NCBI GenBank assembly: GCA_000165425.1
Contig: CT868085.1
Location: forward strand, 558,001-601,676
Origin: Paramecium tetraurelia
Lineage: Eukaryota
Reading direction: 5' to 3'
Length of the DNA stretch: 43,676 nt
How positions within the stretch are numbered: the first letter of the stretch is position 1; every line of letters begins with the position of its first letter. Both the position numbers and the translations under genes were made by a program. The notes beneath the pieces were generated by a model. It saw only the letters and a list, made by a program, of their open reading frames with translations, was not told where the DNA came from and did no database searches. This document shows positions 18,101 to 43,676 of the stretch, piece after piece.

Positions 18101-21100
18101 ATTAATGTAAAATTGAATGTTAACCTTAATGTACAAGATGTAACAAAGGTGCATGTTCTGAATGTCAAACTTTTGGTTGGATGTTTGACCCCGCTTCAAA
18201 TTTATGTATAGAAAAGTGTGGAGATCGATATGTAGTTGGAAATGAGCCTTGCGATGATGGATATAATTTTGATGGTAATGATAGTTGTCTTGCTTGTAAA
18301 AGAGTATGCAGGGATGATTGCAAGACTTGTAGTGATGATGGAACCACATGCCTAGAATGTAAAACAATTGGATTTAGACCATATACATACTATTGCGTAA
18401 ATATTTGTGGGGATGGATATCTAGCTGTAGATCCATACAACAGATATATAGAATAATGTGATGATTTTAATTTAGTAAATTATGATGGGTGCAATGCAGC
18501 TTGTTTATTTTAATGCTAGACGATAGATATTTGTACGAGTTGTGTAAGTAATAAATGTTAAAGTTGCATCAGTACCTACTATTTGGATGCATCAAAAAAT
18601 AAATGTATTGAATTATGTTATGATAATATTATTGTTGGAAATGAAAAATGTGAGGATATGAATAGTTTAATGTTGGATGGCTGTTATAATTGTTAATTAT
18701 CATGTTAATAATCATGTCAGACATGCACAATTAATGGATGTACTTAATGTAAAGCAGGCTATTTGCTAACCAATTATTAATGTGTTAATATTTGCGGAGA
18801 TGCCATTGTTGTGTTTGGAGAGGATTGTGATGATGGCAATTTAAATCCTTTTGATGCATGTCATCAATGTGTATATTAGTGTTCTCCTTATTGTTTGACC
18901 TGTCATAAAGGATAATGTTTATAATGTTAAAGGGATTATATCAAAATAAAAGGAGCCTGTTGGAAATATTAAGATTTATTGATGTAAAATGAGCAGAATT
19001 TATAAATTATTGAGGAAACCTAAATTATATTTTTTGAATTTTGTTCACATTATGACAAAATGAATTGCTAGAAATGCCAATACCCATATACCTATAATTA
19101 ATTTGCTTAATAATGTGAAATTTAGTTAGAATATTTAACTCATTATGATGGCCCAACAGGTTAAGATTATATTTAACCTTTATTGGAGTTTTGTCTCATC
19201 TAGTACCATGAAACTTGTTTGAAATGCTATAACAATTTTGAATTGGATGATTACAATAACTCATGTCAACCAATTTGTGGTGATAATTAATTGAATGGCT
19301 ATGAGTAATGTGAAGACAATAACTCTTTGCTTTTTGATGGTTGTTATGAATGTAAATATTCATGTGATTACTCTTGTGAATATTGCCAATTTGGAAAATG
19401 TTTCAGATGTTAATAAGATTAGATTTTAGTAGATGAAAAATATTGTCAACCAAAGGCAGTCTGCAATTAGATTCAAGGGTTTTATCTAGATGAAGAAACA
19501 AATACTTGTATTGAAAATTGTGGAGATGGTATAGTTTCAAAAAATGAGGAGTGTGATGATGGTAATGTAATTTAGTATGATGGTTGCTATTAGTGCAAAT
19601 ATTAATGTTAACCATACTGTTCTGAGTGTATAAAAGGAAAATGTATTATAAGACCTTCTCCTTGTAGTGTTGGTTTTTATTTTAGCTTTGAAACTCTATC
19701 ATGTGAATCTATGTGTGGAGATGGCATTCTGGTTGAATCATAAGAAGAATGTGATGATGGTAATCAAAGTGATGAAGATGAATGTACCAATAATTGTAAG
19801 TTACAATGTGATTCTAAATGTGCTCAATGCGAAAAACAAAATAAGTGTTTATCCTGCAAAGAGAATTATTTATTAATTAATAATAAATGTGAAGATATTG
19901 AGAATTTAGATAATTTTATTAAGAATTGTGAAATATCAATAGATAATGAGTGTTTGTAATGTGAACAAGGTTTCACCCTAAAAAATAATAATTGTATTAC
20001 TTATTGTGGTGATGGCATTTAAAATGGAAAAGAGTTATGTGATGATGGCAATAAAATCAATGGAGATGGATGTGATATAAATTGTACTCCATCTTAAGAT
20101 AGTTATTGCAGAGATTCTGAATGTACGATCTTAATTTCGCCAAGTGCTCAACTTGTTTTTTCAAATGAGTTTTTTGGTTTATAATATGCAGAATTAATTT
20201 ATGACTAAGATATGAGATTGGCAGAGGATTACACCAAACAAGATTATCTTGAGAACTTAGTATTTTTTATTGAGGGTAGAAATGAAAGTGCTAATATTTC
20301 TTATTAGACTAACTCTATCAACTAAGATTTAAATTATATTATTATTTCAATACAGATTGAGTTTTTGGAGTATATTCAAGATCCAGTCTTAAAGGTAAGG
20401 TTTAATAATAATTAAATATTGGAAAATGAGTATGGCTTATCCATAAAATAACAGATTCTATCAACAAAATTATTATCTCCAAATGTTCTTGATTAAAGTC
20501 AATAACAAAGTAGTTAATCATTAATTTCAATGAGTTCGTAATTATTGAAGATAATGGCTGTATTTATAGCATTATCCTCGATAACTGGATAACTACAAAT
20601 AATAACTAACTTAATTGATATTATTCAGTAACTGTATTACTTGAAATATCTAAACTCTAGGATTGGTATTAATCTTGCTCAATTTTACTAAACCTTCAAA
20701 ATAATATAGCTAAATAACATTTATGATTAATTGAACATGAATCCAGATTCTAATTTCAAAGGCGTATTGACATATTACCATTCTGAACCAATATTTGAAC
20801 TTGATGAGAGAAATGCAAATTTTCTAAATAACATTTCCCAATTAAGCTTGGTGTATATAATATTAACAGTAACACTGATGATATTGAAATTTGGTACTGT
20901 ATTAGTAATAAGAAAACTGTCATAATTAAATGCAATTCATTTAAAATAATCATAGCTTTACATTGTAAATTTCATATAAAAGAAATGTATAAAAATAAGA
21001 AAAATAAAGTATTGGCCTCAAATTCAAAGTTTATTTATTGCTATGATTTACGAATTTGGAATAAATATATTCCTTGCTATGAAGTATTCACAAAGTGACA

Positions 21101-21672
21101 GTGAGGGTTACTGTGGGGTTATGATAGCCATTTCAACTCTGCTGGTAAGTACGTTATTATTGCTATCAAAATTGAAATAGAGTAATGGCTTAATCAAAAG
21201 ATTGAAATTACTAAATAAAGAGGACAATGTATACATATACATGTGTGTTCAAAAGCTGTTGTTTGTGATGTTTTTGGTGTTCTTTTTTTAATCTGGGGCT
21301 ATTCAGATTTTGCTATGCATTTTAAACGAATTTTAATATTGTTACTTTTTGTATAGTTACAAAATAATTAAATAGCCATCGGAGAATTTGAAGCAACTGT
21401 CCTCTCACATTGTGTAATTCATAATTTGCAGTCTATATCTAATTAACAACTTTTACTAAAATGACCCTCAGGTTTTGATTATGATTGGGTGGAGCATCAT
21501 TAGTTTGATGAGTACGGTTTTGGTGATAACAGTAATCACAGATTTTTTTGATTTAATTTATCCTTTTTTCAAGAAGATCTTACAAAGACAGAGTGTTCAA
21601 AATAATGAGTTGAGTGAAATGTTTTGCGTAGTTGAAAATCAGGTAAATGTTCTCAATCGATAATAATTTTGA
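15152..21672 (+). CDS. Large Cys-rich surface/membrane protein (about 2158 aa): signal peptide, furin-like repeats, 10 CGDG..CDDGN..DGC (DUF4215/Myxococcus-type) repeats, C-terminal multi-pass TM domain
   Basis: Signal peptide MQYLVLIFLISSLINAVVG; two 22-nt introns (16333-16354, 16567-16588) give an in-frame 6477-nt CDS; CxxCxxxCxxC repeats; several hydrophobic helices after about 20520. Confidence 0.9.
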
Positions 21673-23128: not shown

Positions 23129-25130
23129 ATGAATTATATGAGAGATAATTATACGAGTGCCAAAAATGATGTGCCCATCCTGATCGATTACGGAGCCTCA
23201 ACAATCAAAGCAGTAACAGCATTCTTTTTCATCTTAGGGATATGCCACATCTCAAACTCCAGATGTAGTCATCAGAAGCTACATCAATAAATTCAAGGAC
23301 TCTAATACGCAATCCAATTAGATAGCTCAATGGGACACAGACGTATTTAAGAATTACAGATCACCTTTTGAGAAGAATCTCATCTAACATTCAGGTGCAT
23401 TAGAATAACTAAATGACTTCGTATTCGAAAGACTTTAAGCTGGAAAGCATGGCAGAGTCAATCATCCGATAATATTAACAGAATGTTTTGCCACCACTGA
23501 TCTAGCAAGAATGATAGTCCTGGAACAAATGTTTGAATGCTATCAAGTGCCAAATGTGATGTTGGGAGTGGATGCATTGTTCTCAGTATTTCAAGATGAC
23601 TTGGAAGCCTATCTCAAACAAACCTAATTAATTGTTCATCTGGGTGATCAAACTGTCCATGTAGTCCCAATAGTCAATGGCCAAGTGATATATTCCAACA
23701 TCAAACGATTGAACTTGGGTGGTCTCAACAGTTTAAAGTACTTTTATTAAACCATCCAATTGAGACACCCCCATCTGAAATTCACTTATCCTTAAATTGA
23801 TTATTGGCATAAATAGTACACCAGTGTTGCTATTGATTATCAACTCTAATTGCGATATTTCCAGGGCCCATAATAATACTACGGATACAGAGATTAAATA
23901 TCAGAATAAAATAGATTTCATGATGATTAACTACAATTCTTGGATCCCATATACATTGATATTCCCATTGTATAGAAAATTGTGAGTGCAGAAGACTTAA
24001 AGAGAAAAGATGAAAATAGATAAAGGATGAAAGTTAGATTGCAGGAATCCATCTAGCAAAGTAGAATTAACAAGAAGTCGCAATTGGAATAACAATTAGT
24101 GGCATTGCAATAGGAATTAGAAGCTGACCTAAATAACGAGGAACTCAAAAAGAAAATTACAACTCTGTAAGTTAAACTCGGTTTAGCACCCAAAGAAGCC
24201 TTAGATGAATTGAAGTATAATTTATTGAATGTCCCTGATGATAAACTTACACCTTCTTAATTGAATTAGAAAAGATATCAAAAAGTCATGTATGAATAAG
24301 CGTTGATGAAAAAATAAAAGAACTAGGAATTTAAGTAATTACAAAAAGATGCTAACAAATTCAAATTGGAAGAACCTGAGAAATATTTACAAATGCTATA
24401 CGAGAAGAGAGATCGTATAGTTTTACAAATACAAGAAAGGAAAAAACTACAATAAGAAATGAATAGTAGGAATTCAAGATTCAATTAGAAGAGGATCTAA
24501 ACTCTAGCCTACCTAGGTGCTGATGATAAGGCTGAGGATGATTTTGGAAAGGACGACAAGGATTGGGAAATCTATAGAAGTGTTACCAAAGAAATAGATT
24601 CTGCTGATGAAAAGTCTAAATACAAACTGTAAGAATTAGAACAAGAATTAAAAGACCTAGATCCTGATTTCGAGATTAAAATCCTTAAATCTATAGCTAA
24701 TATACATCAATTAGGTATGAATCTCAGTCAAGTCCCATTATCGGTTGATCGGGTAAGGTGTTAAGAAATTTATTTCTAACCTAGTCTGATTGGAGTTGAG
24801 CAATAAGGGTTAGTGGATATGATCAAATTATCATCTAAAGGTTTGGATAAACTCCTATTGTAAAACATCATCCTAACAGGAGGTGGAGCGAAAACACAAG
24901 GAATTATGTAAAGATTACAGAAAGACTTAATATCAGAATATGATTGTCCGATTGCTATTAAAATTGCCACAGATCCAGTCTTTGGAACATGGTTGGGAAT
25001 GAAGAACTTCGCCAATAAACATTCAAATATGCTTTCCTAATTTTCAATATCAATTGATGATTACAATGAAATTGGTACTTAAAAGTGGGAGATATTTAAA
25101 TAGCATCCATTTTCAAATATTGTAGATTGA
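23129..25130 (+). CDS. ARP5: Actin-related protein 5 (INO80 complex subunit)
   Basis: ILIDYGASTIKAGYA, YRSPFEKN, HPIILTE, MFECYQVPNVMLGVDALFS, a long charged insertion, EDDFGKDDKDWEIYR, EIYFQPSLIGVEQ, NIILTGGG, HPFSN; one intron near 23213. Confidence 0.92.
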
Positions 25131-25293: not shown

Positions 25294-25683
25294 ATGAATA
25301 ATAATAAAAATATGTATTCACCAAAGTATCCAGTTGATTAAAGCATAGTTAATATTGGCAGCAATCCATTAAAAACAAGGAGAGCTTAATCTGAATTTTA
25401 GCCATCTAATTTTTAGAATTAAGGGAATAAATAAAGAACAAAAAACTTAGTAGAATTATTAAAAGATGATTTAAATATTTAATATGTCGATTATCCAGAA
25501 GAGTTATTTTAAGTGCCTGAAAATTGTGTAGCTTTAGTTCCTATATAAATAATGAGAGATATATTAAAGAGTTATCAATATAATAACGAAGAATTGTAAA
25601 GAATGGGGATCAAAGCGAAAGAATATGAGTAGAAAAGATTATTACTAAAATTCAAGTCTGGATTGAATTATATAAATTAATGA
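25294..25683 (+). CDS. Small hypothetical protein (about 115-129 aa)
   Basis: ORF ATG25294-TGA25683, whose stop overlaps the next ATG. An alternative 28-nt intron (25629-25656) would end it at 25666. Confidence 0.5.
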
Positions 25684-27266
25684 ATATATAGAATTAATAA
25701 CGTTAAAATAATAATGATGATTGTGATTGCTGTGATTTGAATGATTGCTGTAATGGATGTTGTTGTGAAGATTGTTGTAAGGATTGTGAATGTCAAGAAT
25801 GTGGATGTGATTGCATTAATACAATTCAAACTAATTGTTGTGATAATTGGCAATGTTGTTAGTGTATGCAATGTTGCACAGCAGGAGATATTCTTACAGA
25901 ATTAAATTTTAATCGTCATATTGAATTGGAAGATGAAAACGAAACCTTCTTAGCTTAGTTTAAGGAATTGATTGGCAATTATAGAATTTATAAAAGATAT
26001 CGACATGCATTATTAGAAGAATCCTTCATATTGAAGAAAAAGAAAACATCAACACTTCAGTTTTATGACAAGATAATTTTGAAGACTTATTGGTTCACAA
26101 ATCAAAATGAATATTCAAAATCTTTAAGTGTTTGGCATTAGAATATATTCAAATATACAGAGATGTAAATATATGGAGCTAGAATTCAGGATATTTGTAT
26201 AGACCGATGGAGAATAGCAGTATTATTACCTAAAATGCATCACATTCAAAAGAAACACAAGTTCCAGGTTTATACTTTTCTTTCTTAAATTTCATCTTAA
26301 ATCTTAAATTATTCAGAAGAGAAATCAATATTTAATGAGTTACTTGTTTATTATGATACTAATTATGTGTTGTTGCCATCAAATTTATTAAAATAATCAG
26401 TTTATGAACAATATAGAGCTAATCATAAATTGAGACATCCTCCTGAATGGGAAGATGAAAATGAGTAGATATTTGATTGGAACAAAAGCGATTGTTTTTT
26501 AGTTGGATTATTTGTATTAAGTTAATTAGTAAATTCATCATTAGATGATGTGTATGAAGAATCAAAATTTAATAAAAATAAACTCAACTTTTACTTATAA
26601 AAAATAAATAGTTAAGAATTCTATAATGTTTTGATCTATATGTTGCAGACAGAACCAGACGAAAGATACTCATTATAACAGATCCTATAGTTAATGAAGC
26701 ATAAGCCAATCACGCCAATTACATAAGATAATAATAAAAGCTAAGCCCCTTTGCAATCAGCTTAGAAATTATAGCCAATCAGTTTAGTTAGTAGAGTCTA
26801 AAACTAGAATTTAAATACTGGAGGTGTTTATACAGGGGATTAGATTGACAATAAAAGGCATGGCCATGGAAAATTGCTTAATCCTGATGGATCTGGATAT
26901 GAAGGAGAATGGTTCTAAGATTTAATGCATGGGAAAGGTGAATTGTTTTTACCAGATGGAAGAATACTATATAAAGGATAGTTTTAAAATGGGAAATATC
27001 ATAATTTTGGACATCTGGTCAATCCAAATCCTAATATCTCTTAAAATTATAATTTTAGAGATCTCAGAAATATCGGAAATTATTGGTCAAAATATGAAGG
27101 AGATTTTAAGTAAGATAAAAAACACGGCTATGGCATCTTGTACTTCTCAAGTGGAGAAAAGTGGGCAGGAGAGTTCATTGATGATATTCCGAGTGGATTT
27201 GGCACATTTTTTGGGTTATCTGGTGAAGTAACAGGAAAATGGGTTAAAGGCATTTTATTTGATTGA
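25680..27266 (+). CDS. Cys-rich N-terminus / degenerate pseudokinase / MORN-repeat protein (528 aa)
   Basis: 22 Cys in residues 15-66; kinase C-lobe remnants (HPPE, KSDCFLVG, MLQTEPDER) with no HRD or DFG; MORN repeats YTGDQIDNKRHGHG, YEGEWFQDLMHGKG; no intron needed. Confidence 0.85.
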
Positions 27267-27340: not shown

Positions 27341-29956
27341 ATGGAACATAGATAGCTATTAGAAACACTGGTGGTTGATTTATTAAACAGTCCAATCAAC
27401 CCATTAGTTTAAGTACGCTTTTCAAATATGTTTAGTATCGAGACTTTCAGATTTAACACATCTGTAAATAAATTGGGGTAAATGAGTATGGAGGTTAAAA
27501 GGATGCAATCTTTTTTAAGCATTTTGCTTCCCATTTTATTTCATATTTAAATGAAAAAAATGAGCTCTCTCCTATCATATCCTAGGCTCAGATCACCAGA
27601 AATAAGTCAAAACCACAAGAACTACAATCAAATCAACAAATAGCATTACCCTAAAAACCTGAGCCAATCAAAAGTCCTGTTTGTTTTAAACCAAAAAGTG
27701 ACATAGTTTAAATCATTGATGATGATATCGTGGACACAAACAAACCAAAAATTGGTTTGGAGGTATTCCTCCCTAAATCCTTAACACCTGTGCCAAATAT
27801 TATTGGGGTTAATTTAGACATAAATAATAATCAATTTAATAAAACAAATGATCACGTTAAACATACATCATCGAAAACAGCCTCAAATAAATAGGAAATC
27901 AAACCTAAAGATCCTAAACTCATTCCAGATCTCATTCTCAAAAAGAAAATCATTAAAAGTCCTCAAAAACATGACCTCCAAAACAAAACATTTACAACGC
28001 TTGAACCTGTTGAAATTAAGGAAACCCAATTAAATAGATCTCTATAATCTAAAACAGAACTCCACAACCATTAAAAAAAGAAAAAGTTGTCCCCCTCATT
28101 GGATATCATAAAAAGAAAAGATAGCAAACCATCAACTTTTAAACCAGATTCTTTATCTGAATCGTTCGAATTAAGAACCTCTGATGATTTATCATTGAGA
28201 GAAGATAGCATTAAAAGGAAGGAGAATATTAAATTGTTTAATAAGCATGAGAAGAAATCTATTAAGGGACCAGAAAGTATCAATAAAAGAGAAAAACTGT
28301 AAAAAATTGAAAAAAAAAAACATTCAGAATCTGATATATTACAGAAAATTGAAAAATAGACTCAATAGATTATACCAATCATAGAGAAGAAGGATTAGAA
28401 GAAAAAGGATAGAAATGATAATAATAATAAATAGAAGCATAATAAAGCAGATTAAGAAAAGTTCTAATAAAAAGAGAAGAATGTAATATTAGAAAGATTA
28501 GAGAAAGAAAGGCAAGATAAAGATAGGTTAGAAAAAGAAAGAGTGGAGAAATTCGAAAAAGAAAGAGCAGAGAGATTAGAAAAAGAAAGATAAGAAAGAA
28601 TTGAATATCTAGAAAAACAAAGGTTGGAGAGAGAAAGATAAGATAAATTAGAAAAGGAAAGATTAGAGAGATTAGAAAGAAGTGATAAACATAGATAAAA
28701 AGAAAGCTAAGAATTGGAATTAATTATTGAAAAACTATTATGTACTAACCAAAATGAAACTTAAAAAGTTAAAAAGAATTCAGAGTAATTAATAATAATG
28801 GAGAGCAATGAAAAAGCAATCAAAAAATCAGAAAAAGAGCAATCTAAATTTGAAAAACCTGTATGTAATTATTGTCAATGCTCAGATACAAAAACTATTG
28901 AAATTTAAGATGGAGTAAGAATATGTACATAATGTTTGCTAGTATCCATTAATCCCTTCTAAAAAATTATTACAAAATTAGCCTTTGCTGAATACAGATG
29001 TTCAGGTAAAGAAAATGCTAAAACATGTTATAGTTTCACTATTGAAAATTCATTTGATTGCAATCTTGAAATCAGATGTGTGTCTCTTAATAAGCAAGGA
29101 TTATATGATCTAACCTTTCCAATGTCTTGCACATTACTAATAAATGGTATTCCCATCAAAGAGGTCAGATCATTACAAGAAAAGTCAAGCTTAAAAAAAA
29201 GAAGGGATTCATCGATTTTTCTTAATGTAAAAGATATCTTAAAACAAAATAACTTTTCTAAGAAGTTTGTATTCTCAATTATTGAACATTTGCCGGATTA
29301 AACTTATCGAAAAGATACAATTGGCGCAATCTATTCTTTCGGTTTGTTTTTAGTCGAACCTCTGAATGTTGTAAAAACAATTGAGAAATTTAAATCACTC
29401 GATATCTAACCAAAAATCAAATCAGATTAAGGAAAAAAAGAGATATTGGTCGCTAAAACGATTATTAGTCTCTATTGTTAATTCACCTTGGAATTAATTC
29501 AAATACCAGCAAAGTATATAATAAGTTTAAAATGTATTAGGGGTGAATTTTGTTAGCATGAATAATGTTTCTGTTTACGTAGTTTCTTGGAAATGATGAT
29601 CAAAGTAGAACATAAAAAATGGATTTGTCCAATTTGCAAAAAAGTGTGTTTCCATTTGATCATTGATAAATATCAGCTATTCATAATAGAACGAATCAAA
29701 CAGTTAGAAATATCTGTTGATTAGATAGTATTAGATCATAATGTATAATTTTAAAATAGCCTAGGGTTAAATGGATAAAGATGAATAGATCAATTTAATA
29801 TTATAAGATTAAACAATTAAAACGTACTAAGACATAATTGATAGAGGATATTTGAATATCAATAAAATCAACAAAAATGAAGATGAAGATGACATGCCTA
29901 TTATAAATAATGATGGTAAGTCTTAAAATGTTGCAATAATATTGATTGATGATTGA
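27341..29956 (+). CDS. SP-RING (MIZ zinc finger) SUMO E3 ligase-like protein (PIAS/Siz-type)
   Basis: SLYCQFTLELIQIPAKGEFCQHEQCFCL..WICPICKK; upstream CxxC pairs; EKERxERL charged repeats at about 28490-28680; SIM-like IVQIIDDD and terminal AIILIDD*. Confidence 0.88.
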
Positions 29957-30888: not shown

Positions 30889-32689
30889 TCACTTTTGAAG
30901 TTTCCCCATATTCCACTTGCCTTAAATGGATTGCCCATTTTTATACGAGTAAGTACCAAACCCATGAATTTATCCATCTTTGAATGCCCCAATATACTTG
31001 TCCCCATTGCTTAAAGAGAGTGTTCCAAAGCCATCCCTGTTATCCCTCTTAAAGGCTCCTTCATACTTGAGCCAACATGTAATATTGGTTAGATTATTAT
31101 GGTCTAATCCAGAAATCATTGGTATTTAGTCCTAGTTATATTCTATTCCTTATCCATGATATTGATCATCAGCCCAATTGCCATCATAGGTTACTTTGCC
31201 TTAAGAATTGTATAACACTCCCTTTCCACTCATTTTATTATCCTTCCACATTCCATCATAATAGCTCCCATCAGTGTGAATAAACTTCCCTTTTCCGTGT
31301 CTCAAACCATTCCTCTTCATGCCTTAATACCTGGATCCATTGGGATATCTCTCCTTTACAGTTTCAACTACAATAGTTATTCAATAGAGTATACCTAAAT
31401 CTTTTTACTTAGTTGGTTCGTTTCCGATGAGACCCAAAACATCATACTAGTCAAACGTATTTGGTTCTCCTATAAGGTCTTATCCTCCTCCACCAATCAA
31501 TTAAGATACATCCTATTGCTAATACTGCTATTCCATTTGTTAATCTTGATGTTGCTCTAGGATTATTTGGACAGGAGTGATAGATTATTTACATTTTGGA
31601 TTTTTGTCTAATCTTTCATACAATTACTGAGCAGTTGGTCGTTATGATACTTTAACAGTCAACATATCTTTGATGATGTAAAAGAAGAAATCATGACATG
31701 AAATTTTGATGGTTTACAAATGAGAAGATATCTTATCTTCAAATATCACTCCTTAATCATAATCGTAACAGAGAGATGATTGTTTTCCACTGCATAATTG
31801 TAGGAATACCATCCCTAAGGAATAGATGTCTGATTTAAACCAATCAACATTAGGTTCTTTATTGCCTTTATCCAATTCACTCACTAGTTCAGGAGATAGA
31901 TAGGCTATTTTTGAATATTTCTGTTTGTCACTGTATATCTTTTGATAATCGTTCTTGTGATCGAACAAATGAGGGTCAGCTATTTTGTATTTGTCTTGTG
32001 TGATAAAGATGTTTCTCATCCTCAAAGCTTGATGCATAATACCATTTTAATGTAGATAATTCAATCCATTAATACATTAGTAAATTATGGGATAGAATTC
32101 GTCTTGCTGATAAGGGATTTTATTTTCCAATCTATATTGGAATTCAGAGGCAAAATCTGTCAGAATATAATCGAAGATCAGAAATGATTTATAAATTGAT
32201 GTACAGAATCCTTCCTCTTGTCTTGACATGTATTCATTCAATTATACAATGTTATCATTTTATAACAATTTACGTTAGAGGAATTGTTAATTCTGCTCTT
32301 CAAAATCCGTTTGATATAAAAACTCTTAAACTTTCAATATCGCAAGCAATTTAGTTTGCTTATTCTCCAAAAGAATGACATCCCCATACCATTCATCCAA
32401 GTAATGAGTCTTGTGTTCGTAATTTTATAATGTTTATTGAATGTCAGGAGTGGATTTATCGAGTATCAAACAGGGATTGGTATTACATGACAAACACTAT
32501 CCAAATCCTTAGCATGAACATATAGCACAGCAACTTCTAAATTCATCTCTCATTGATGTGCAACACGGTCTCATACAAACATAACATTATTCACAACCTT
32601 CACAACAATACTATGCACAATCAGACAGTCCTTTCCAACCTTGGGTGATATTACAAATTATAATTACAATGTTCACAAGTGTTCCCCAT
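30889..32689 (-). CDS. Cys-rich pseudokinase-MORN protein with N-myristoylation motif
   Basis: MGNTCEHCW.. with 17 Cys in the first 64 aa; GLNYLHQNGIMHQALRMRNI (HRD lost), KIADPH (DFG lost), YLSPE, KSDIYSLG; C-terminal MORN repeats; short introns. Confidence 0.9.
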
Positions 32690-32704
32690 ACTGTTATAAT
32701 TTAA

Positions 32705-32720
32705 ATATATATATATATAT
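32705..32720. repeat. (AT)8 microsatellite in a 56-nt divergent intergenic region
   Basis: Direct reading; lies between ATG32689(-) and ATG32746(+). Confidence 0.8.
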
Positions 32721-32745
32721 AATTTATAAATAAAATTATCATCCT

Positions 32746-34769
32746 ATGCACAGAAAATTATCAAGTTTGTTATCATAGACAACCTGCAAAAAGACTTAGA
32801 TAATGTCTCCAAATTCCAACACCAGCGTAGATATCACCTAACTAACTAATGTATTGTAACACTTTTATCAATAGTTACATATGTAGATATTAAAAATGGT
32901 TGAAAACAACAGCAAGGATACGGATATTATGAAAATTATGGATACCATCAAAATATTATCAAAAGGCCTTGAAAAGGCATCTTAAAGTGAGTTGGAATTG
33001 GGTTATAAAGATCGTTAATTATAGAAGGCTCAATAATTATATAGTGATTTGGAATAGAAATTTTAAGTATTGAAAACTAAATATGATGACTTGGAGGGTT
33101 AAAATAAGAATCTTAAGACCAAAATTGATGAATTGATGCATCAAAATCAATTAAATTATCATTAATATTAATTACAAACTAAGTTAAGTGGTGATTTAAA
33201 TCATAAAGTAACTAATTTAGAATAAAGGTTAGAAATCATATTAGAAAGTGATTTCCCTAATGAATCTGTTAATATTAGAAAAACACTAACTGACTTAGTA
33301 AAAGAATGTGAAAGATAAAAAAGAGAACTATAATTAAAGAATTAAGAAATCTCTCGACTAACTGAACAATATAAATCATCTCAACAACGAATCAGTAAAC
33401 TAAATTAAAAACTCGAATTAATGAAAAAAAAAATCTCAATTAGAGAACTTGAAAATTTGGCTTTGGATAGAGCTGAATGGATTCAATAAGATGACAAATA
33501 AAATGATCCAACTCAGATTTTAATTCGATATTAAGCTTGTGATAATTTAGATTTCAGAATCAATGCTCTTAAATTAGAATTTGCAGATATCATGAATGAT
33601 ATCTAAGAATAAGGAACTACTGTGTTTACTTAAAAGGTGATGTAATCAACTTAGAAATAAATCAAAGAATCCATTCAATTAGTAACTTCATAATATTTGT
33701 CATTTAAAGACTTTTCTGAGAAGCTTAATATGATGCTTAAATAACTGATTTCCCTCTAATTGATTGAATCTCTTTAAGAGTAGATGCAGTTCATTGAATA
33801 TAATTTTAAACATGTCTTTATGTGTTAAAATACAAGGTTGTGGATTTTGGATGCTTAAATGGGAATCCTTTACTCAAGCAATAATTAACGAGTCTTAATT
33901 AATAAGGGATCTTTCAGTGAAGTGTTGCGATTCTAAAAGCCTTTACACAAACGAGATTATAACCTTTTATGTGACAATACCAATCATGTTGCCATGTATA
34001 CAAATCAAAGTCTCCTTTATCCAATCTTCAACCAGAATCAAATATTATCAGGTATCTTAGAAATAAGCAATTCTGTAAGTGATTACTTTTCTTTTGATGA
34101 AGAGTATTATGGTGTAATTTTGGCTAAGTTCTGCGAATAATTGATTAAAACTTAAATAAAAACCAGGTTGTTGTCAGTTACACTAAAGTTCGATTCTATG
34201 GTTTAAAATGCCTTTCATGATTTTCTTGTAAGTAAAACTCAGTTTGAATTGTATAAACATATACGTTATTGGATGGAGACAATTTTAACTGTTTCAATGA
34301 TAGCCTTTTATTTTGTTAAGAATGAGTCATTTATTACTTATAAAACCATTGGAACTAGCTGGGATGGTATGACTCATAAAAATGCAGTTACCTAGGGTAG
34401 AGTTTTAGATCAACCAATTATTTTAAGTAAAAAAGGCATTGCAAAACAAGTTTGTGATCGTAAGAAAGTAATAATACTTATCAAATTTAGGAATTAATAG
34501 TAATGAACATGAGAAAATCAATAGAGTTCGATGAAACCATAGATTTGGATTCGATCTTGCCAGTTCTAATCCATCCAATTATTTATGATAATCAAGTGAT
34601 TGCTGTATTTGAAGTTCCAATTAAACAAAGAAATCTTCTAAAGTAGGAGAAGGATAAAATTATGCTTGGCAGTTCAACCATAGTTGGATTGGATCAAAGT
34701 TTTGAAATGATGGCTGCGAAATTAGGAACTACTATTATGAATGCAATTAATATTTTAAAGCTGTAATGA
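32746..34769 (+). CDS. Coiled-coil protein with two C-terminal GAF-like domains
   Basis: Long heptad region, then RLWILD..SLLYPIFNQNQILSGILEISN..FSFDEE, and KKGIAKQV..FDETIDLDSILPVLIHPIIYDNQVIAVFEV; intron near 34500; TGA 34767-34769. Confidence 0.8.
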
Positions 34770-36154: not shown

Positions 36155-37806
36155 TTTATTTTTTCCTAATCATAAAGATATTCTCAAGTCTGATATAAAA
36201 AGGTTATTAATTAATATCGATTTCTACAATATGTATAATAGCATATTCAGAATGTACTCATAATTCTTAATTTTTCATAAATGCACATCTGCTCCCTCAA
36301 TGAAATGAGTCTCAGTTGTTATTATTATGACATAATAAAAAATAGAATATTTCAGTATTAATATTCAAATTCACATTAATTCTCCAATTATGGGTTTCAA
36401 TTCATAATCCTCCACATTTCATATTTTCAAATAAATATGTAAAGAGATAAATTGCTTAATTATAAACCAAAATAATTTCAAAAAATTACAAAATTTATTG
36501 AAATTGTGTATATACTCTCAATCAATGAGAATAAAACTATAATTAAATTTTATAGTGATATTTAATATAGGTTTCTAAGAAGATATTATAATTATTTTAA
36601 TTATGCACATAAAATAAAGAATCAAATCAACATCTACTATTTTAAATTAGATCATAAATTTAAATAAATTATTGAGGAGAGCTGGTTTAAGGCTATTTGT
36701 TGTAATCAAATATAAAATAATTTTTAATTTCCATAATTTAAATGTCAATATTGAAGATATATAGCGGTTTAAAAATTAGAATTATGATTTAGCAATTGCA
36801 ACCTTCTGCCATTTCATTAATAATTTAGTTTAATATTCCTATAGAAAATTGGAAGTAAAGTGAAAAGAAATGATAATTATTGTAGAAAAATATCTTGATA
36901 TTGAATATTAATATATTTAGTTATCATAAATTATTACAATCATAAATATTTTTAGGTTTTATTATCATGATTTAATGTATAGATATGTATTACATTTATT
37001 TTTATTGCAATCATAATTTAATCTATACTTATTTAAACATTATACATTTATTTAGGTTTTATAATAGTCTTTCTTACTTCTTTATTATTATTATTTATAC
37101 ATTTTATGCTGTATAAACATTGCTATGCTAAATATATATAAAAATAACAAAAACCAAAGAGAATATTACTTCTTGTAAATAAGAAAATTAGGCATTTTTT
37201 TTAGATTGTATTTAGATCCATTAATAATGATGATCTTTTTTATATAATCAATCATAACCTTAAGTCTTAATTACTTTGTATAATAATCTTTAATTTAAAC
37301 AGCTTATTGATAGAAATAATATTAATGAGTTACAATTTGTTATTATTTATTTGCAATTTAATAAAAAGTAGCTCCAATCAAAAAAATATAAAGTTGAAAT
37401 TCAATAAAGTTTGATCTTGTTTTTTAATTCATAACTTTCAACCTAATAATTTGATATTTAACTTATAAATGAATTATTTAATTAATATTACTTAAAGGTT
37501 AATTTTAAGATGATACATTTATATGATAGCTACATCTCAAATCATTATTATTCCCATTTCTCGCTCAATTAATTAATTAATCATTAAGATCTATTGATTA
37601 TTAATAAAAAAATTAATGTTGATAAAAATTAACATCATCTCTCAGTTTATATTGGCAATTTTAATCAAATGATTAAGCGATCTATTTTTGCAGTTAAAAA
37701 TAGAATATTTACAGAAGAATCGCTTCAATTTTATTTAATTGGAAGAATACTTATTTTCAAAATATTTTACTTTTATAGTTTATTTAAACAAAACTAAAAT
37801 TCATAA

Positions 37807-40309
37807 ATGCAAAAGCCAAAAATTTTAAATAAATCAAAAACAGAACCTCCAAATAATGAACTTGCATATTATCACCTTTAATAAAGTGAAGTAATGGAGT
37901 TGTAATATTTATATGCAGAAGTTGATATAGAATAATTAAATGGATCATGCATAGGAGGAGATAAATAAGGCTTTAAAATTGGATCCAAAATATGCAGAAG
38001 CCTATTAACTGAGAGGTAGTGGGCGATATTATTACACTTAGGATTGATTCATTTTAAGAAAGAGGAGAAGCTTAAGGCATTAGATGATCTAAACTAAGCC
38101 ATCTTCCATAATCCAAGTTTGGTTAGCAGCTTCTATCACAGAGGTATTTCGAAAACTGATGTAGCTACTGTCTATTAGAAAAATTAAATGCTAGACAAAG
38201 CTTTAGAGGATTGCGATTAGGCAATAAAATTGAATCCTGATTATGCGTTGGCTTATAGCAAAAAAGGTGATTGTAACTTCTTAGTAACAAAGGTTCATTG
38301 ATGAAGATCAAAGGAAGGCTAGATGAAGCTCTTGATTTGTACTCAAAGGCAATTGGTCTTGATAAAAATTGTTCCAATGCTTTTCTGCACAGAGGTAACT
38401 TGAGAATATGAAAGTAAGCTCTTCTATTTAAGGAAATCCGTTAACTAGAAAAAGCACTTAAAGATTATAATTAGGCTATTGAAATCAATCAAAATAATCC
38501 TAATGCATATTTTAATCGAGGTGAATATTAGAATTATGATTAGGAGTCTTACTAAAAGAAATTGGAGAGTACGAATAAGCTCTTTAAGATTATGATAGGG
38601 CAATCGAATTAAATCCAACTAATGCCAGCATTTATTTGAATAGAGGTAACTTGAGATATAATAAGGTGCTTTATTGAGCAGTATGAATCAGAAAGAAAGA
38701 GCTTTAAAAGATTATGATAAGGCTATTTAAATCAATCCAGAATACTCTAATGCTTATTTAAATAGAGGTATGAAATCGTTGATTAATAGCTCTTTTGCTT
38801 TGTGATATGGATCAGATTGGCAAAGCAGTAAAAGATTGCAATTCAATAATAAAGATTAACAAACAAGATGCAAATGCTTATTTTAACCGGGGTATTGAAT
38901 ATTTTGAAAAGAGGGTTTTTATTTGATCAGTTGGATTAGAGACAGCAAGCACTGGATGACTACACTTAAACAATAGAAATAAATCCAAAGGATTCTAGGG
39001 CATTCATAAATAGAGGTGAGAATTTAATGAAATAATAGGCCTATTGTATTGGAGAATGCAAGAAAAAGAAAAAGCCATGAAAGACTGTTTTACTGCCTTA
39101 GAAATATGTCCAAGCAATCCTCTTTATCTCACGATAATAGGTGATTTACATTTTCAGGATTTATAAAATGAAAAAGTGCATTAATATTTCACTGAGGCGT
39201 TGAAAAATATTGAAGGAATGTAACCTGAAGATAAAGCTAAATGGGGTTTGTCAGATAAAAACATCAGCTTCATTAAAATTAAACTATAGATTCTATAAGA
39301 AATAGAGCGTGATATCATAATAGCCAAAAAGCAGATATCCCTGTTGCCCAAGATTTCTACATAAGATTAGAATTAAGCAAATGAATTTTTCGAGAGGATT
39401 GAGAGAATCGAAAGGTCAGTTTCTGTAATAGTTTTACCAAACAATGAATCATAGAAACCAGAAAGGCAATAGAATATGATCAATTAATTCTATGAGATGT
39501 AGTAGCAACTTAAATAATTACAATAATAGTTGCAATAATAAAATCAACTGATTAACAAGATTTAAAATTTAGATAACTTCTAAATAGAATTTATGATGGA
39601 TGAGTTGAAGAAACCAAGAAATAAGCATCAATTTATATATTATAAATCATTATTTTGGAGATTGTACTTCTATATGCATGCAATGTAGGAACTATCTACA
39701 AATCTATTTTAAGTCAATAAAGAAGCCTTTGTTGAAAGTACTTCAGAAAAGGTTGCAAGCATATTATAAAAGATTTTTAAGGTTGGATCAAAAGCTTTAG
39801 AGCAATTACCAATTATTGGAGAAGCATTCAATATAATTAATTCTGCATTAGATTTTGGAATTGAATATCAAAAGGAAGCTAAGTTTAAAAGAAGGATAAT
39901 TCGTTTAACTAATATTATGAAATTATTTGCCATAACTCCTTCTGAATTAGAGAAAGAGGTATAGTTTGCAGCAATAGAATTAAGCAAATTGTAGGAACCT
40001 GGGATGAAGGAAATCCCGATATCGAAATTCACATAATTTGTGGAAAAATTATCTTTACTCGAAAATACTTAAGAAGAGTATAGCAGAGATCCTTATTGGA
40101 AGAAAGGGACAGTAGATTCGTTGATAATCTTGAAATATTTAGAGGATAATAATGATATGATTATGTTAGAGGATTAGCATAAAAAACTTAGGCAAGTATT
40201 CATTGATGCCATTCTAAAAAATGAAAATTCAACTTCAAACACAATTAAGAAATAAGAGAAATAGATCTCTAAAGACAAAGAAGAAATTGATAAATGTAAC
40301 ATATAATGA
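37807..40309 (+). CDS. TPR-repeat protein (755 aa; about 10-11 TPRs, coiled coil, helical C-domain, CaaX)
   Basis: Repeats such as AYFNRGVLLKEIGEYEQALQDYDRAIELNP; 10 introns totalling 235 nt give an in-frame 2268-nt CDS; ends KCNIQ*. Confidence 0.93.
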
Positions 40310-40928
40310 ATCACGATAAATGTAATATGAATAGGTTTTATTGTTATTCTAGTATATAATTGTTAAAATGATAATAAAAAAATCTTGACATTTTGCATTT
40401 CATCTAATTTTTAATTTCAAAGGACTTTCCCAAGCAAGTTAACGTTTTCACCAGATCTTATGTTTAATCACCAATAACTTCATTTAATAATTCTTAAGAG
40501 TATATATTTTCATCCTTTTTATCTCTAATTTTATTGAGAATAGATATTAACAGTGTTGAAATTATAAGAAGAAGGATTGTCTTCACTCATTGAAAATAAG
40601 AGTGATATCATTCTTTTTAAGTGATTTCATAAAATAATTTTTTTATTTTATGCATATTTGAAACATTTATATCATTAAAATAATGAATAACTTTATAGTG
40701 ATACTTATCATTAGAATAAAAGTAGAAGTTAAATATTTACTTTCTTTTATATTTTAGCATATTTTATTTAGTCTTTAGTAGGTGTGTTTTCAATTATATT
40801 CGTAATTAGATTTTGAATCAAGTATGAATTCAAGTTTAAAGGCAAATATAATTTGTTATTAATTAAGAGTATTTCATAATTATTTTTTAGTTCGCAAAAT
40901 CAAAATAGATTAAAATTAAATTAAATTT

Positions 40929-43049
40929 ATGAAATCACTCGAAGCAAGTGAAGATAATATATAAAAATATTGTAAATGTAATATATTCATATTATAATCA
41001 TAGATAATGAGTAAAGTTGGAAATGGCAAGAGGGAATTTTCTAAGTGGAAGGAATTGAATAAAGACAAAGAACTTTGAAAAAGACCAATTTTCTTGTACA
41101 ATACACTAAAGATAGATGGATTCATTATATTTAGGATGGATGTATGCTAAGAAAGTAATGTTAATATTATCCTTAGAGATAGAGCGTTATTGAGTAATGA
41201 ATAGCCAGAAATCTATAAGAATTTAGAGCATATTAAATATCTTAGATGGGAAGGAGAATATGGTGGGAATTAAAAAAAAGTAGGAATGTGGAATGCCTTT
41301 TGGAGAGGCGATAATCTAAAAGTTGGAGGACTTTATAACGAAAATGGTTTGAAATAAGGAAAATGGGTTAATCTATTTCCAAATTACAATGAGTAAATTT
41401 TTTGCTTTGAAAGCAGTATTTCCTAGGTCACTTATTCAGGATACTATAATAAGGGTGTAAAATAAGGAGAGTGGACTAGTTATCTATATGATAAATAAAT
41501 GTAAATTAATCCATAAATTTTAGTGCAAGTGGTATTTATAATGAATATGGATAAAAAAATGGGATTTGGGTTGAGCTACATGATAATTATAGTATGTATG
41601 TTCAAAGAAATCTATTAAAAGGGATCAAATGGTAACATTTGTTGGAGAATACGATAATGGAGTGAAATTTGGAAGATGGAATATATTCTTTCAATCCTGT
41701 TTCTTTTATGAAAGACAGTTAATGTAAGTATGAAAATAATTGATAATAGAGGTGGAGGAGATTATAATGAAAATGGATTAAAAAATGGATTTTGGATAGA
41801 TATTAATGAAAATTATAATCAGTTATACCGTTATGTTTATTTTATTATTAGTGAATATGAAATCTTATACACAGGGTTATATGATAATGGCAAGAAATAA
41901 GGATAATGGGATATAGAATTTAAAGATGGTAGATTTGCGCCATCTCATCCAAAAATGTATTTAGCTATCCAAAATAAATTTAGTGGAGGTGGAGTCTATG
42001 ATGAAAATGAATAAAAAACTGGAAAGTGGATAGAATTACACGAGGACTTTAGAAAGTAAATAAATTAAGTTATTGAAGTGTGTGCTAGGTAATTTTGGAA
42101 GGAGAGTATGTTAAAGGAATTAAATAAGGAAAATGGATTACATAATTTAGATTGAATTTAAAACATAAATTTAAAATTATGTAAGTAGCTGTTTAATTGT
42201 TTAGTGGTGGTGGAAACTATGATCTTTAAGGAAGAAAAATTGGCAAATGGATAGACATGAATGATAACTTTTGGAAGTAAAATAAATTAAATAATAATAT
42301 TCAATTAGACAATGCCAAGTCATTGAGAGTGGATAATATGATTGTGGAAAGAGGAAAGGATCATGGATAATTAAATTTAGGTATACGATAAATAAAGATT
42401 TCAATAAAATGTACACAATATATAAATAAACCAGTGGAGGGGGCAAATATGATGATTAAGGAATTAAAAACGGAAAATGGGTTGAAATCTTTAAAAGCTT
42501 CTAAAAGTATCCTATTTATATTGTAATTAGTTCATGCTAAGTAATTCTAACAGGAGATTATTTGGATGGGAAAAAAGTAGAAAATTGGAAAATTTCAGTT
42601 AGAGATCATGAAAAAGACAGATTTTAATAGATGTATTAAATTATACTATTATAGTGGAGGAGGAACATATGATTAAAATGGACTAAAAGATGGAAAATGG
42701 ATAGATTTAATTGAAAATTTCACAATGTATCATTATTAGAGGAAATTAGCAACAATCAAGTGATTATGAAAGGAGAGTATTTATTTGGAAAAAAACAGGG
42801 CTAATGGAATACTTTGTATAAAAAAGATCTTAAATTAGACTTTTATATTCTGTAATTTTCATTTTTTTAATTATTGATAGCGCTGGGGGTAGTTATAATA
42901 AGGATGGAGAGAAAAATGGAATCTGGATTGATTTGAATTATAGTTTTGGAAAAGAAGTCGGAGAATTCTTATACATTTTTATGGGAACATATAAAAACGG
43001 TCTTAAAATGCAATAATTTACAAGAAAAAATTTATATTTGGATGAATGA
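40929..43049 (+). CDS. MORN-like beta-hairpin repeat protein (571 aa, 16 introns)
   Basis: Alternating modules GGGxYDENGxKxGKWIxL and QVxxxGEYxxGxKxGxW; 16 GT-AG introns totalling 405 nt give an in-frame 1716-nt CDS. Confidence 0.9.
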
Positions 43050-43500
43050 TAATTATATTTACAGTAATGATATCACGATTTAAATATATTAAAATGGAAA
43101 TTAACACATTAAAAAGTTAAATTTTAGTTGAATAGATATTTTAATATTTGGATATTATACAAATTAGATCTTAGGTGTACCTAGAATTATTTAATAAGTG
43201 ATATATTTTATTCAGCGATTGATTGAAATTACTGACATGATATTTTAGTTGTTTATATAATTAATTTTTATAATGATGGAGTTGCAGAATTTATTCTGTT
43301 CAAATTTAAATCAAAATCAACATGTTCATATTGATTTATCAACATTTACTTAATTAGTGATGTATGTTGAAAACGCTAATTATTACTAATTATCACATTT
43401 GGCTAGAAATTATCTTAACCCACAACTTTTAATTAAAATTTAAATTAAAATTTTAAAATCGAGTATAATAAATTATAAACTGCTTAAGCATTAAACAATT

Positions 43501-43676
43501 ATCTCTGGATTTTCTAGGGCTGACAAATAGTAAGATGGATGTCTCTACAGAACCTTTGTAGGAAACATCACATCTCTGGGAAAATGGTAATGCTGTCTTC
43601 AATACTGACTTGCCTGAGGGCCGATATTCACAGACAGAGTGTCATTATAGTGGTTAGACAGAGGCTGTTCATGAAG
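43501..43676 (+). ncRNA. Candidate structured non-coding RNA (truncated by window end); alternatively the 5' end of a CDS from ATG43535
   Basis: Abrupt GC increase; three hairpins (43503-43519, 43533-43575, 43593-43637); TATAAA at 43474 and TAACCCACAA at 43416 upstream. Confidence 0.35.

What the first reader, a model, noticed from the sequence alone, without database searches (positions are those of the whole stretch)
38016..39140. One-exon-one-repeat TPR cassette array: eight consecutive exons of exactly 102 nt
Seen: exons 38042-38143, 38165-38266, 38293-38394, 38419-38520, 38544-38645, 38666-38767, 38790-38891 and 38914-39015 are each 102 nt (one 34-aa TPR). Nine phase-1 introns (20-26 nt) all fall at the same repeat position (R/K-G|), and two of them (38395, 38646) share the start gtaacttgaga, which points to duplication of exon+intron units. 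The 1.27-kb last exon has no introns. Known parallel: Tetrahymena LRR genes built from 90-nt phase-2 exons that evolve rapidly. Inference: symmetric cassettes allow repeats to be gained, lost, shuffled or skipped without frameshift, as expected of a diversifying recognition-receptor family.
Basis: partly seen in the sequence, partly recalled or inferred. Interest (0 to 1): 0.8.

Follow-up and report, generated by a model that had tools for sequence, protein, structure and literature searches.

The report
Paramecium TPR gene, one exon per repeat
A Paramecium tetraurelia gene encodes its TPR repeats one per 102-base exon, split by tiny introns at the same spot in every repeat; this looks like the old footprint of exon-plus-intron duplication in a conserved gene, not a fast-changing receptor.

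Summary
On the + strand, 37807-40309 is an 11-exon gene (ciliate code) giving a 755-aa protein. It has eight consecutive 102-nt exons, nine phase-1 GT..AG introns of 20-26 nt, and an intron-free 1271-nt last exon. Each intron splits the codon of TPR consensus position 8 (Gly/Ala).

The public P. tetraurelia protein P0050 is reproduced exactly from this locus using seven of these nine phase-1 introns unchanged. RNA evidence:
- Stranded poly-A reads cover 37794-40315.
- Four reads support the 38143|38165 junction.
- Twelve runs hold 0.76-0.79 of the sampled words. The expected share is 0.75-0.79 if all ten introns are spliced and 0.97 if not.

Origin by exon+intron duplication is plausible. Introns 38395 and 38646 are the most alike, and the exons after them are the most similar pair.

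The diversifying-receptor reading is not supported:
- Orthologues in P. pentaurelia (755 aa) and P. sonneborni (753 aa) align without gaps across the TPR array.
- 10 of 10 repeats match position for position.
- Exon skipping was not observed in Paramecium (PMC5663052).

This is a new example of a known kind, of modest interest.

The parts
37807..40309 (+). Whole coding region of the TPR gene: 11 exons, 755 codons, TGA stop at 40307-40309
   Evidence: Spliced translation under code 6. Aligns without gaps over the full length to the 755-aa P. pentaurelia orthologue, and without gaps across the TPR array to the 753-aa P. sonneborni orthologue. Stranded poly-A reads cover 37794-40315.
37807..37890 (+). 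Exon 1 (84 nt), ATG start
   Evidence: The N-terminus matches orthologues P0001 and P0002. The public model P0050 starts later, at ATG 37940.
37891..37918 (+). Intron 1, 28 nt, phase 0, GT..AG
   Evidence: It is needed to keep the frame and to match the orthologue sequence.
37919..38015 (+). Exon 2 (97 nt), most of TPR unit 1
   Evidence: TPR_11 E 2.8e-4.
38016..38041 (+). Phase-1 intron, 26 nt. The public model uses an alternative donor at 38019.
   Evidence: One search shows P0050 uses donor 38019 (23 nt, one extra Arg). The orthologues lack the extra residue.
38042..39015 (+). Array of eight 102-nt exons separated by seven phase-1 introns (38144-38164, 38267-38292, 38395-38418, 38521-38543, 38646-38665, 38768-38789, 38892-38913)
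   Evidence: Each exon hits TPR_1. Four reads support junction 38143|38165.
38144..38164 (+). 21-nt intron, a multiple of three with no in-frame stop. The public protein keeps it as coding.
   Evidence: Retention reads through without a stop. P0050 contains the 7 extra residues. Loose ends of 4 reads in run X22 show it spliced.
38395..38520 (+). Intron plus following exon; unit most similar to 38646-38767
   Evidence: Intron prefix 11 nt and suffix 4 nt identical. Intron alignment score 13.5, next best 6.5. Exon pair 68% identical, third positions 0.68.
38646..38767 (+). Intron plus following exon; partner of 38395-38520
39016..39038 (+). Last phase-1 intron, 23 nt
39039..40309 (+). Intron-free last exon (1271 nt): TPR unit 10, then a ~390-aa all-helical domain with no Pfam family, ending in a CaaX-like motif (CNIQ)
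   Evidence: TPR_1 only at residues 2-26. (AF2, pLDDT 79.9, all helices). (C-terminal motif). A contig from run X9 covers 39658-40316 without gaps.

Best explanation
This is an ordinary, expressed, conserved Paramecium tetraurelia gene. Its protein has ten N-terminal TPRs and a Paramecium-type helical C-terminal domain that ends in a CaaX-like box.

The one-exon-one-repeat layout is most likely a historical footprint. An ancestral TPR unit that already carried a tiny intron in the codon of TPR position 8 was multiplied by tandem duplication of units of about 125 bp (102 nt of exon plus the intron). Every copy therefore inherited the intron at the same site and phase.

The exact 102-nt exon length is then held by the strict 34-residue TPR period, not by any cassette function. 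The uniform phase 1 follows from the shared site.

The duplications are old. The array was already fixed at ten units before the P. aurelia species examined here diverged, and before several paralogues split. It has since evolved under purifying selection as a protein-binding scaffold, probably tethered to membranes by prenylation.

Shown here: the gene model, the TPR identity, the shared position and phase, transcription, and conservation of repeat number and order.

Inferred: the duplication mechanism, its age, purifying selection (no dN/dS could be computed), and prenylation.
For: Gene model and phases.

TPR register, with the intron in the codon of position 8. The orthologue P0001 hits TPR_1 at E 9.1e-64.

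Expression and splicing:
- 95 and 127 stranded reads from two poly-A runs were laid, all with the first mate on the minus strand, covering 37794-40315.
- Four reads give the 38143|38165 junction.
- 12 of 20 holder runs carry 0.76-0.79 of the words. The expected share is 0.754-0.792 with all ten introns removed and 0.97 unspliced.
- The public protein P0050 is reproduced letter for letter using 7 of the 9 phase-1 introns unchanged plus one with a donor 3 nt downstream.

Unit duplication including the intron:
- The position and phase are the same in 9 of 9 junctions.
- Intron pair 38395/38646 stands out among 45 pairs, and the exons after them are the top pair of 28.
- Paralogue P0003 (38% identical) has 8-residue insertions exactly at two unit junctions. 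These read as unspliced 24-nt introns in its annotation.

Age and stability:
- Exon DNA identity is 39-68%, and third-position identity averages 0.40 against 0.285 expected at random.
- The orthologues align without gaps across the TPR array.
- 10 of 10 units are positional best matches in each of 3 species pairs.
- Paralogues P0006, P0010 and P0011 are colinear over the array.
- Concave-face positions vary among orthologues in 3.2 of 10 units, against 4.33 for other non-core positions.

Background: P. tetraurelia averages 2.3 introns per gene, introns average 25.1 bp, and 99.9% are 20-35 bp (PMC5663052). The introns here are typical in form but unusually dense.

CaaX: 21 of 53 family sequences, including all full-length close relatives, end in C-x-[ILVM]-x.
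Against: - No DNA of orthologues or paralogues was available. Conservation of the introns themselves outside this locus rests only on two insertions in one paralogue's annotated protein.
- Only one of ten junctions has direct read support. Reads were 58 nt, and no joints passed the tool's listing threshold.
- The intron similarity involves one pair only. The other seven phase-1 introns show no detectable similarity to one another, so descent from one ancestral intron is inferred from position alone.
- The elevated third-position identity of the exon pair rests on 34 sites and is about 2 SD above comparable pairs, uncorrected for 28 comparisons.
- Some family members do show signs of later repeat turnover. 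Paralogue P0011 has units 85% identical, and repeat counts in the family range from about 5 to 16.
- Metagenomic homologues (P0029, on a 2416-bp contig for a 769-aa protein) appear to lack introns in the array. Introns could therefore have entered after the array existed.
- The list of groove positions used is recalled, not taken from a call.
Confidence: 0.72

Rival explanations
1. The symmetric phase-1 102-nt cassettes are a working device. Repeats are currently gained, lost, shuffled or skipped without frameshift in a rapidly diversifying recognition-receptor family, as in the Tetrahymena 90-bp LRR exon genes.
For: - Exact-length exons with uniform phase do allow in-frame gain or loss at DNA level.
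- The wider family has variable repeat numbers, about 5 to 16 units.
- One paralogue (P0011) has neighbouring units 85% identical, suggesting later duplication or conversion.
- The Tetrahymena precedent is real (PMC6564038).
Against: - Three orthologues of 755, 755 and 753 aa show no indel in the array.
- 10 of 10 repeats are positional best matches in each species pair.
- The TPR region is as conserved as the rest of the protein.
- Concave-face residues are conserved between orthologues.
- Exons are only 39-68% identical in DNA, so nothing recent has happened in this gene.
- No exon skipping was observed in Paramecium (PMC5663052).
- The family is small: 47 clusters at 50% identity across all species, 13 at E below 1e-30. 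T. thermophila has 1,874 LRR genes.
- There is no signal peptide or transmembrane evidence for a receptor. The C-terminus looks prenylated and cytosolic (inference).
Confidence: 0.07
2. Parallel intron gain. The TPR array existed without introns, and tiny introns were later inserted independently into each repeat at the same favoured site. The conserved Arg-Gly codons give ...AGAG|G..., which resembles a proto-splice site.
For: - 6 of 9 junction exons end in AGAG.
- Seven of the nine phase-1 introns share no detectable similarity with one another.
- Metagenomic homologues seem to encode the array in one ORF.
Against: - Nine independent hits at the identical nucleotide, with none elsewhere in the array or in the 1271-nt last exon, is far less parsimonious than inheritance.
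- The one intron pair that is still alignable sits next to the most similar exon pair, as co-duplication predicts.
- A 38%-identical paralogue already shows insertions at the same junctions.
Confidence: 0.12
3. Artefact: the introns are not real, and the region is a decayed or frameshifted pseudogene whose frame can be restored by chance GT..AG pairs.
For: Direct junction reads exist for one intron only.
Against: - The spliced frame is open for 755 codons and aligns without gaps to independently annotated orthologues.
- The public protein uses the same introns.
- Word shares of 0.76-0.79 in 12 runs match the fully spliced form.
- Poly-A reads cover the whole gene on the right strand.
Confidence: 0.02

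Closest known systems
[quoted passage not shown] 2019, PMC6564038; passages read)
   Same: Both are ciliates. In both, consecutive exons of one exact length match the repeat period, intron phase is uniform so junction codons interlock, and origin by duplication of exon+intron units is proposed.
   Different: - Here the repeat is TPR (102 nt, phase 1), not LRR (90 nt, phase 2).
- There is no nucleotide-level repeat conservation.
- Repeat number does not vary among the three orthologues.
- The family is small.
- The Tetrahymena genes are often species-specific and recently expanded.
- That paper states P. tetraurelia LRR genes lack a 90-bp peak, and it says nothing about TPR exon lengths.
Public P. 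tetraurelia protein P0050 (728 aa, 'unnamed protein product (macronuclear)') and orthologues P0001 (P. pentaurelia, 755 aa) and P0002 (P. sonneborni, 753 aa)
   Same: P0050 is this very locus: 100% identical over 720 aligned residues, and reproduced exactly from the window. P0001 and P0002 are colinear at 80.5% and 71.7% identity.
   Different: The P0050 model starts at ATG 37940, uses donor 38019 and keeps the 21-nt intron 38144-38164 as coding. The orthologues and 4 RNA reads favour the 755-aa model.
Hop/STI1 co-chaperone genes, where TPR-DP modules are flanked by phase-0 introns (PMC4522979; passages read)
   Same: TPR-coding modules are bounded by introns of one phase, and this is read as a trace of module duplication or shuffling.
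   Different: In Hop the introns bound whole three-repeat domains, not each 34-residue repeat, and the phase is 0. There is no sequence relationship beyond the TPR.
Typical Paramecium tiny introns (Saudemont et al. 2017, PMC5663052; passages read)
   Same: GT..AG, 20-28 nt. 8 of 10 are not multiples of three. One of the two 3n introns carries an in-frame TGA.
   Different: Density is ten introns in the first 1.2 kb of the gene, against a genome mean of 2.3 per gene. One 3n intron has no stop.

Membership tests
Tetratricopeptide repeat (Pfam TPR_1 PF00515 and clan) | 34-residue units matching the TPR profile, in tandem | tested here: met
   8 of 8 102-nt exons hit TPR_1 (E 1.3e-8 to 0.11). Exon 2 and the start of the last exon also hit it. 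Orthologue P0001 hits TPR_1 at E 9.1e-64 with 7 stretches. An HMM built from the units finds 10 units spaced 33-35 residues apart.
Exact-length exon arrays of the Tetrahymena LRR type (PMC6564038) | At least 3 consecutive exons of one exact length equal to the repeat period | tested here: met
   Eight consecutive 102-nt exons.
Exact-length exon arrays of the Tetrahymena LRR type (PMC6564038) | Extreme bias to one intron phase before these exons | tested here: met
   9 of 9 are phase 1. The phase differs from Tetrahymena, which is phase 2.
Exact-length exon arrays of the Tetrahymena LRR type (PMC6564038) | Variable exon number among close paralogues or species; many species-specific genes | tested here: not met
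   Orthologues of 755, 755 and 753 aa show no indel in the array, and 10 of 10 units are positional. Variation is seen only among distant paralogues.
Exact-length exon arrays of the Tetrahymena LRR type (PMC6564038) | Nucleotide-level similarity between exons, showing recent clonal expansion (group III) | tested here: not met
   Pairwise exon identity is 39-68%.
Exact-length exon arrays of the Tetrahymena LRR type (PMC6564038) | Genome-wide peak in the exon-length histogram | not testable with these tools
   No whole genome is held for this window. Within the window, no other TPR unit exists.
Paramecium spliceosomal tiny introns | GT..AG ends, length 20-35 nt | tested here: met
   10 of 10 introns are 20-28 nt with GT..AG ends. 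The length range comes from PMC5663052.
CaaX-box prenylated proteins | Cys at position -4 from the C-terminus with an aliphatic residue at -2 | tested here: met
   The window protein ends in CNIQ. 21 of 53 family sequences end in C-x-[ILVM]-x.
CaaX-box prenylated proteins | Actual farnesyl or geranylgeranyl modification and membrane association | not testable with these tools
This is inference from the motif only.

The most novel reading that the evidence does not exclude
Paramecium may hold a so far undescribed class of genes (at least this TPR-plus-helical-domain family) built from 102-nt phase-1 exons. This would be a TPR counterpart of the Tetrahymena 90-bp LRR exon arrays, in a genome whose splicing machinery precludes exon skipping. 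Repeat gain would happen purely at DNA level and would still be active in some paralogues, such as P0011 with units 85% identical. If so, two ciliate lineages independently built exact-length exon arrays from different repeat types.
Probability: 0.3. Interest if true: 0.5.

Novelty: new member of a known kind. Interest (0 to 1): 0.3.

Why it matters
The case shows cleanly that a one-repeat-per-exon layout with uniform phase can persist as a frozen trace of ancient exon+intron duplication, with no present role in diversification or alternative splicing. It occurs in an organism where exon skipping was not observed.

It offers a second ciliate example, with a different repeat type and phase, to set beside the Tetrahymena LRR arrays.

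It also corrects a public gene model, in which a 21-nt stopless intron is kept as coding. And it flags a Paramecium-centred family of probably prenylated TPR proteins whose function is unknown.

Tried and rejected
- **Whole-genome search of the window's own assembly:** none is held. The genome-wide exon-length histogram could not be made.
- **Read laying:** reads were 58 nt, and no joints reached the listing threshold. Run X3 laid nothing, and run X9 gave one contig over the last exon only. Nine junctions therefore lack direct read support, and exon skipping could not be looked for directly.
- **Earlier notes of this scan**: nothing relevant.
- **C-terminal domain:**
  - No Pfam family.
  - ESM Atlas best score 0.77, which is chance level.
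  - Foldseek against PDB gave no match at E up to 0.001. The best was FICD at E 0.088 with TM 0.17.
  - The VIA-align wide search matched only residues 1-175 to TPR or helical bundles, with Z up to 11.5. That is below the level trusted for helical folds.
- **Metagenome scan with P0029:** swamped by generic TPR proteins. All 79 loci match only query residues up to about 400, and its own contig was not recovered.
- **Other scans with the conserved C-terminal motif:** Genome contigs gave 14 pattern matches, none confirmed. Viral contigs gave 39, none confirmed. The source organisms of the metagenomic homologues remain unknown.
- **Literature on TPR arrays with one exon per repeat or 102-bp exons:** no paper was found.
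- **dN/dS:** not computable, because no orthologue CDS is held.
Full report
**What is there**

The window is AT-rich (GC 0.20-0.35) and reads as ciliate DNA: TAA and TAG are sense codons, and the introns are tiny. On the + strand, 37807-40309 holds a gene of 11 exons.

The eight exons named in the finding are each exactly 102 nt. The seven introns between them are 21, 26, 24, 23, 20, 22 and 22 nt, all GT..AG. A 26-nt intron (38016-38041) precedes the array and a 23-nt intron (39016-39038) follows it. A further 28-nt phase-0 intron lies at 37891-37918.

Spliced and read with code 6, the gene gives one open frame of 755 codons ending at TGA 40307-40309. All nine introns of the finding are phase 1. 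The last exon, 39039-40309, is 1271 nt without interruption.

**The repeats are TPRs, and the intron sits in the codon of position 8**

Each of the 8 exons, translated alone, hits Pfam TPR_1 (E 1.3e-8 to 0.11). Several also pass the gathering score for TPR_1 or TPR_11.

In seven of the eight exons, residue 2-3 aligns to profile position 10-11 (6 to 14 in the eighth). The split junction codon is therefore TPR position 8, the small-residue position. It encodes Gly at six junctions and Ala at three.

The exon register is thus offset from the canonical repeat. Each exon carries positions 9-34 of one TPR and 1-7 of the next.

An HMM built from the units finds ten units in this gene (E 1.8e-16 or better) and nothing else in the window (best other hit E 0.23).

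**Is the model real?**

Four lines of evidence say yes.

1. The public P. tetraurelia protein P0050 (728 aa) is identical over all 720 aligned residues. It is reproduced letter for letter from the window using ATG 37940, a donor at 38019, retention of intron 38144-38164, and the other seven introns exactly as proposed.

2. The independently annotated orthologues align without a single gap until near the C-terminus. They are P0001 (P. pentaurelia, 755 aa, 80.5% identical) and P0002 (P. sonneborni, 753 aa, 71.7%). This includes the upstream start and both places where P0050 differs.

3. Two poly-A stranded RNA runs gave 95 and 127 reads, all with the first mate on the minus strand, with depth from 37794 to 40315. 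Four reads in run X22 have loose ends that spell the end of exon 38042-38143 directly before 38163. That is the 38143|38165 junction, so the 21-nt intron kept in the public protein is spliced.

4. Of the 20 runs that hold the stretch, 8 hold all of the sampled 31-mers and 12 hold 0.76-0.79. I computed 0.754-0.792 for a transcript lacking all ten introns, depending on UTR length, and 0.97 for an unspliced one.

The weak point is that reads were only 58 nt. No joints reached the listing threshold, so nine junctions have only indirect support. The choice between donors 38016 and 38019 stays open.

**How unusual is it?**

P. tetraurelia has on average 2.3 introns per gene. Its introns average 25.1 bp, with 99.9% between 20 and 35 bp (PMC5663052, passages read).

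Each intron here is typical in form. But ten in the first 1.2 kb, and none in the last 1.27 kb, is far from typical.

A neighbouring repeat protein shows that repeats as such do not attract introns. It has 1791 codons and 10 DUF4215 stretches, and it lies in one uninterrupted frame at 16297-21669.

Eight of the ten introns are not multiples of three. Of the two that are, 38395-38418 has an in-frame TGA, and 38144-38164 has no stop.

**Origin**

All nine junctions share one nucleotide position and phase.

The exons are 39-68% identical in DNA. Among the eight, third-position identity averages 0.40 (0.285 expected from composition). The repeats are therefore old.

One pair stands out:
- Introns 38395 and 38646 share their first 11 and last 4 nt.
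- They give the best alignment of 45 intron pairs (score 13.5, next best 6.5).
- The exons that follow them (38419-38520 and 38666-38767) are the most similar of the 28 exon pairs. They are 68% identical, with third positions at 0.68, against 0.41-0.53 for pairs with the same amino-acid identity.

This is what co-duplication, or later conversion, of an intron-plus-exon unit predicts. The evidence is suggestive rather than strong, since it rests on 34 third positions and a single pair.

A 38%-identical P. tetraurelia paralogue (P0003) has 8-residue insertions exactly at two unit junctions. They begin after the junction Gly and have the length of 24-nt introns left unspliced in its annotation. 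The intron site therefore seems to predate the paralogue split.

I could not fetch DNA of any orthologue or paralogue. Intron conservation elsewhere is untested.

**Is it a diversifying cassette family?**

For this gene the answer is no.

- The three orthologues have the same ten units in the same order. For each of the three species pairs, 10 of 10 units find their best match in the unit at the same position.
- The TPR region is 79.7% and 70.3% identical to P0001 and P0002. The last-exon part is 82% and 74% identical.
- Positions that I recall as lining the concave ligand face (2, 5, 9, 12, 13) differ strongly between the ten units (entropy 2.1-2.9 bits). Among orthologues they vary in only 3.2 of 10 units on average. 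The figure is 4.33 for other non-core positions and 2.1 for core positions. This is the pattern of ten distinct but conserved binding surfaces.
- Paralogues P0006, P0010 and P0011 are colinear over the array.
- At RNA level, cassette skipping is not an option. Saudemont et al. report no case of exon skipping in Paramecium. They explain it by a machinery that recognises only very short introns.

- Unit counts range from about 5 to 16 among the more distant paralogues.
- Paralogue P0011 has units up to 85% identical. Repeat turnover has therefore happened elsewhere in the family.

**The family and the rest of the protein**

The C-terminal ~390 residues have no Pfam family. A full HMMER scan of 1.84 billion representatives found 47 proteins at E up to 0.001, 24 at E up to 1e-10 and 13 at E up to 1e-30.

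Of 20 that I looked up, 14 are Paramecium proteins (P. octaurelia, P. pentaurelia, P. primaurelia, P. bursaria) and 6 are unnamed metagenome proteins. All 9 hits of the word-based search are Paramecium.

The AlphaFold model is all-helical with mean pLDDT 79.9. It has no convincing structural match.

The protein ends in CNIQ, and 21 of 53 family sequences end in C-x-[ILVM]-x. This is a CaaX-like box, so I infer prenylation and membrane tethering. That inference is untested.

Two shorter, partly garbled copies look like decaying or mis-annotated duplicates. They are P0004 (P. pentaurelia, 485 aa) and P0005 (P. primaurelia, 504 aa).

**Comparison with what is known**

The Tetrahymena parallel is accurately cited. 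It comprises arrays of exactly 90-bp exons, more than 98% phase-2 introns, variable exon numbers and recent clonal expansions. The authors note that P. tetraurelia LRR genes lack a 90-bp peak (PMC6564038).

The present gene shares the architecture, with exact exon length and a single phase. It does not share the dynamics.

My searches found no paper describing TPR arrays with one exon per repeat or 102-bp exons. The Hop gene literature describes phase-0 introns around whole TPR domains (PMC4522979).

The locus itself is already in public annotation with most of these introns.

**Verdict**

This is a new example of a known kind, of modest interest.

Noticed in passing
window 37940, 38016-38041, 38144-38164: The public protein for this locus (P0050, 728 aa) differs from the orthologue-supported 755-aa model in three ways. 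It starts at a later ATG (37940), uses a donor 3 nt downstream (38019, adding one Arg), and keeps the 21-nt stopless 3n intron as seven extra residues. Four RNA reads show that intron spliced.
   Followed up: yes
window 40295-40306 (C-terminus) and family proteins: There is a conserved CaaX-like C-terminus. The window protein ends in CNIQ, and 21 of 53 family sequences end in C-x-[ILVM]-x, often with extra Cys upstream. This suggests prenylation and possibly palmitoylation, and so membrane tethering of this TPR family.
   Followed up: partly
proteins P0029, P0033, P0045, P0037, P0055 (metagenome records): Full-length homologues (TPR array plus the same C-terminal domain, some with a CaaX end) occur on metagenome contigs as single uninterrupted ORFs. 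One example is a 769-aa protein on a 2416-bp contig. Their repeats are much more alike (up to 82% identity). The conserved motif was not confirmed in any prokaryotic species genome or viral contig, so their source organisms are unknown.
   Followed up: partly
proteins P0004 (P. pentaurelia) and P0005 (P. primaurelia): These shorter copies, 59-70% identical, have garbled stretches and lost TPR units. They look like decaying duplicates (possibly from the last whole-genome duplication) or badly annotated genes.
   Followed up: no
window 16297-21669 (+): A 1791-codon uninterrupted frame holds 10 DUF4215 Cys-rich repeats and a hydrophobic C-terminal part. It looks like a large surface or membrane repeat protein with no intron per repeat, and it served as an internal contrast.
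   Followed up: partly
window 3707-4762 (+), 10389-11630 (+), 31384-32760 (-), 23184-25127 (+), 25629-27263 (+), 27379-29781 (+): The neighbours are ordinary Paramecium genes: three protein kinases, an actin-related protein, a MORN-repeat protein and an SP-RING (zf-MIZ) protein.
   Followed up: partly
window 41000-43676: GC skew is strongly positive (0.48-0.53) at the right end of the window. The long frames there gave no Pfam hits.
   Followed up: no
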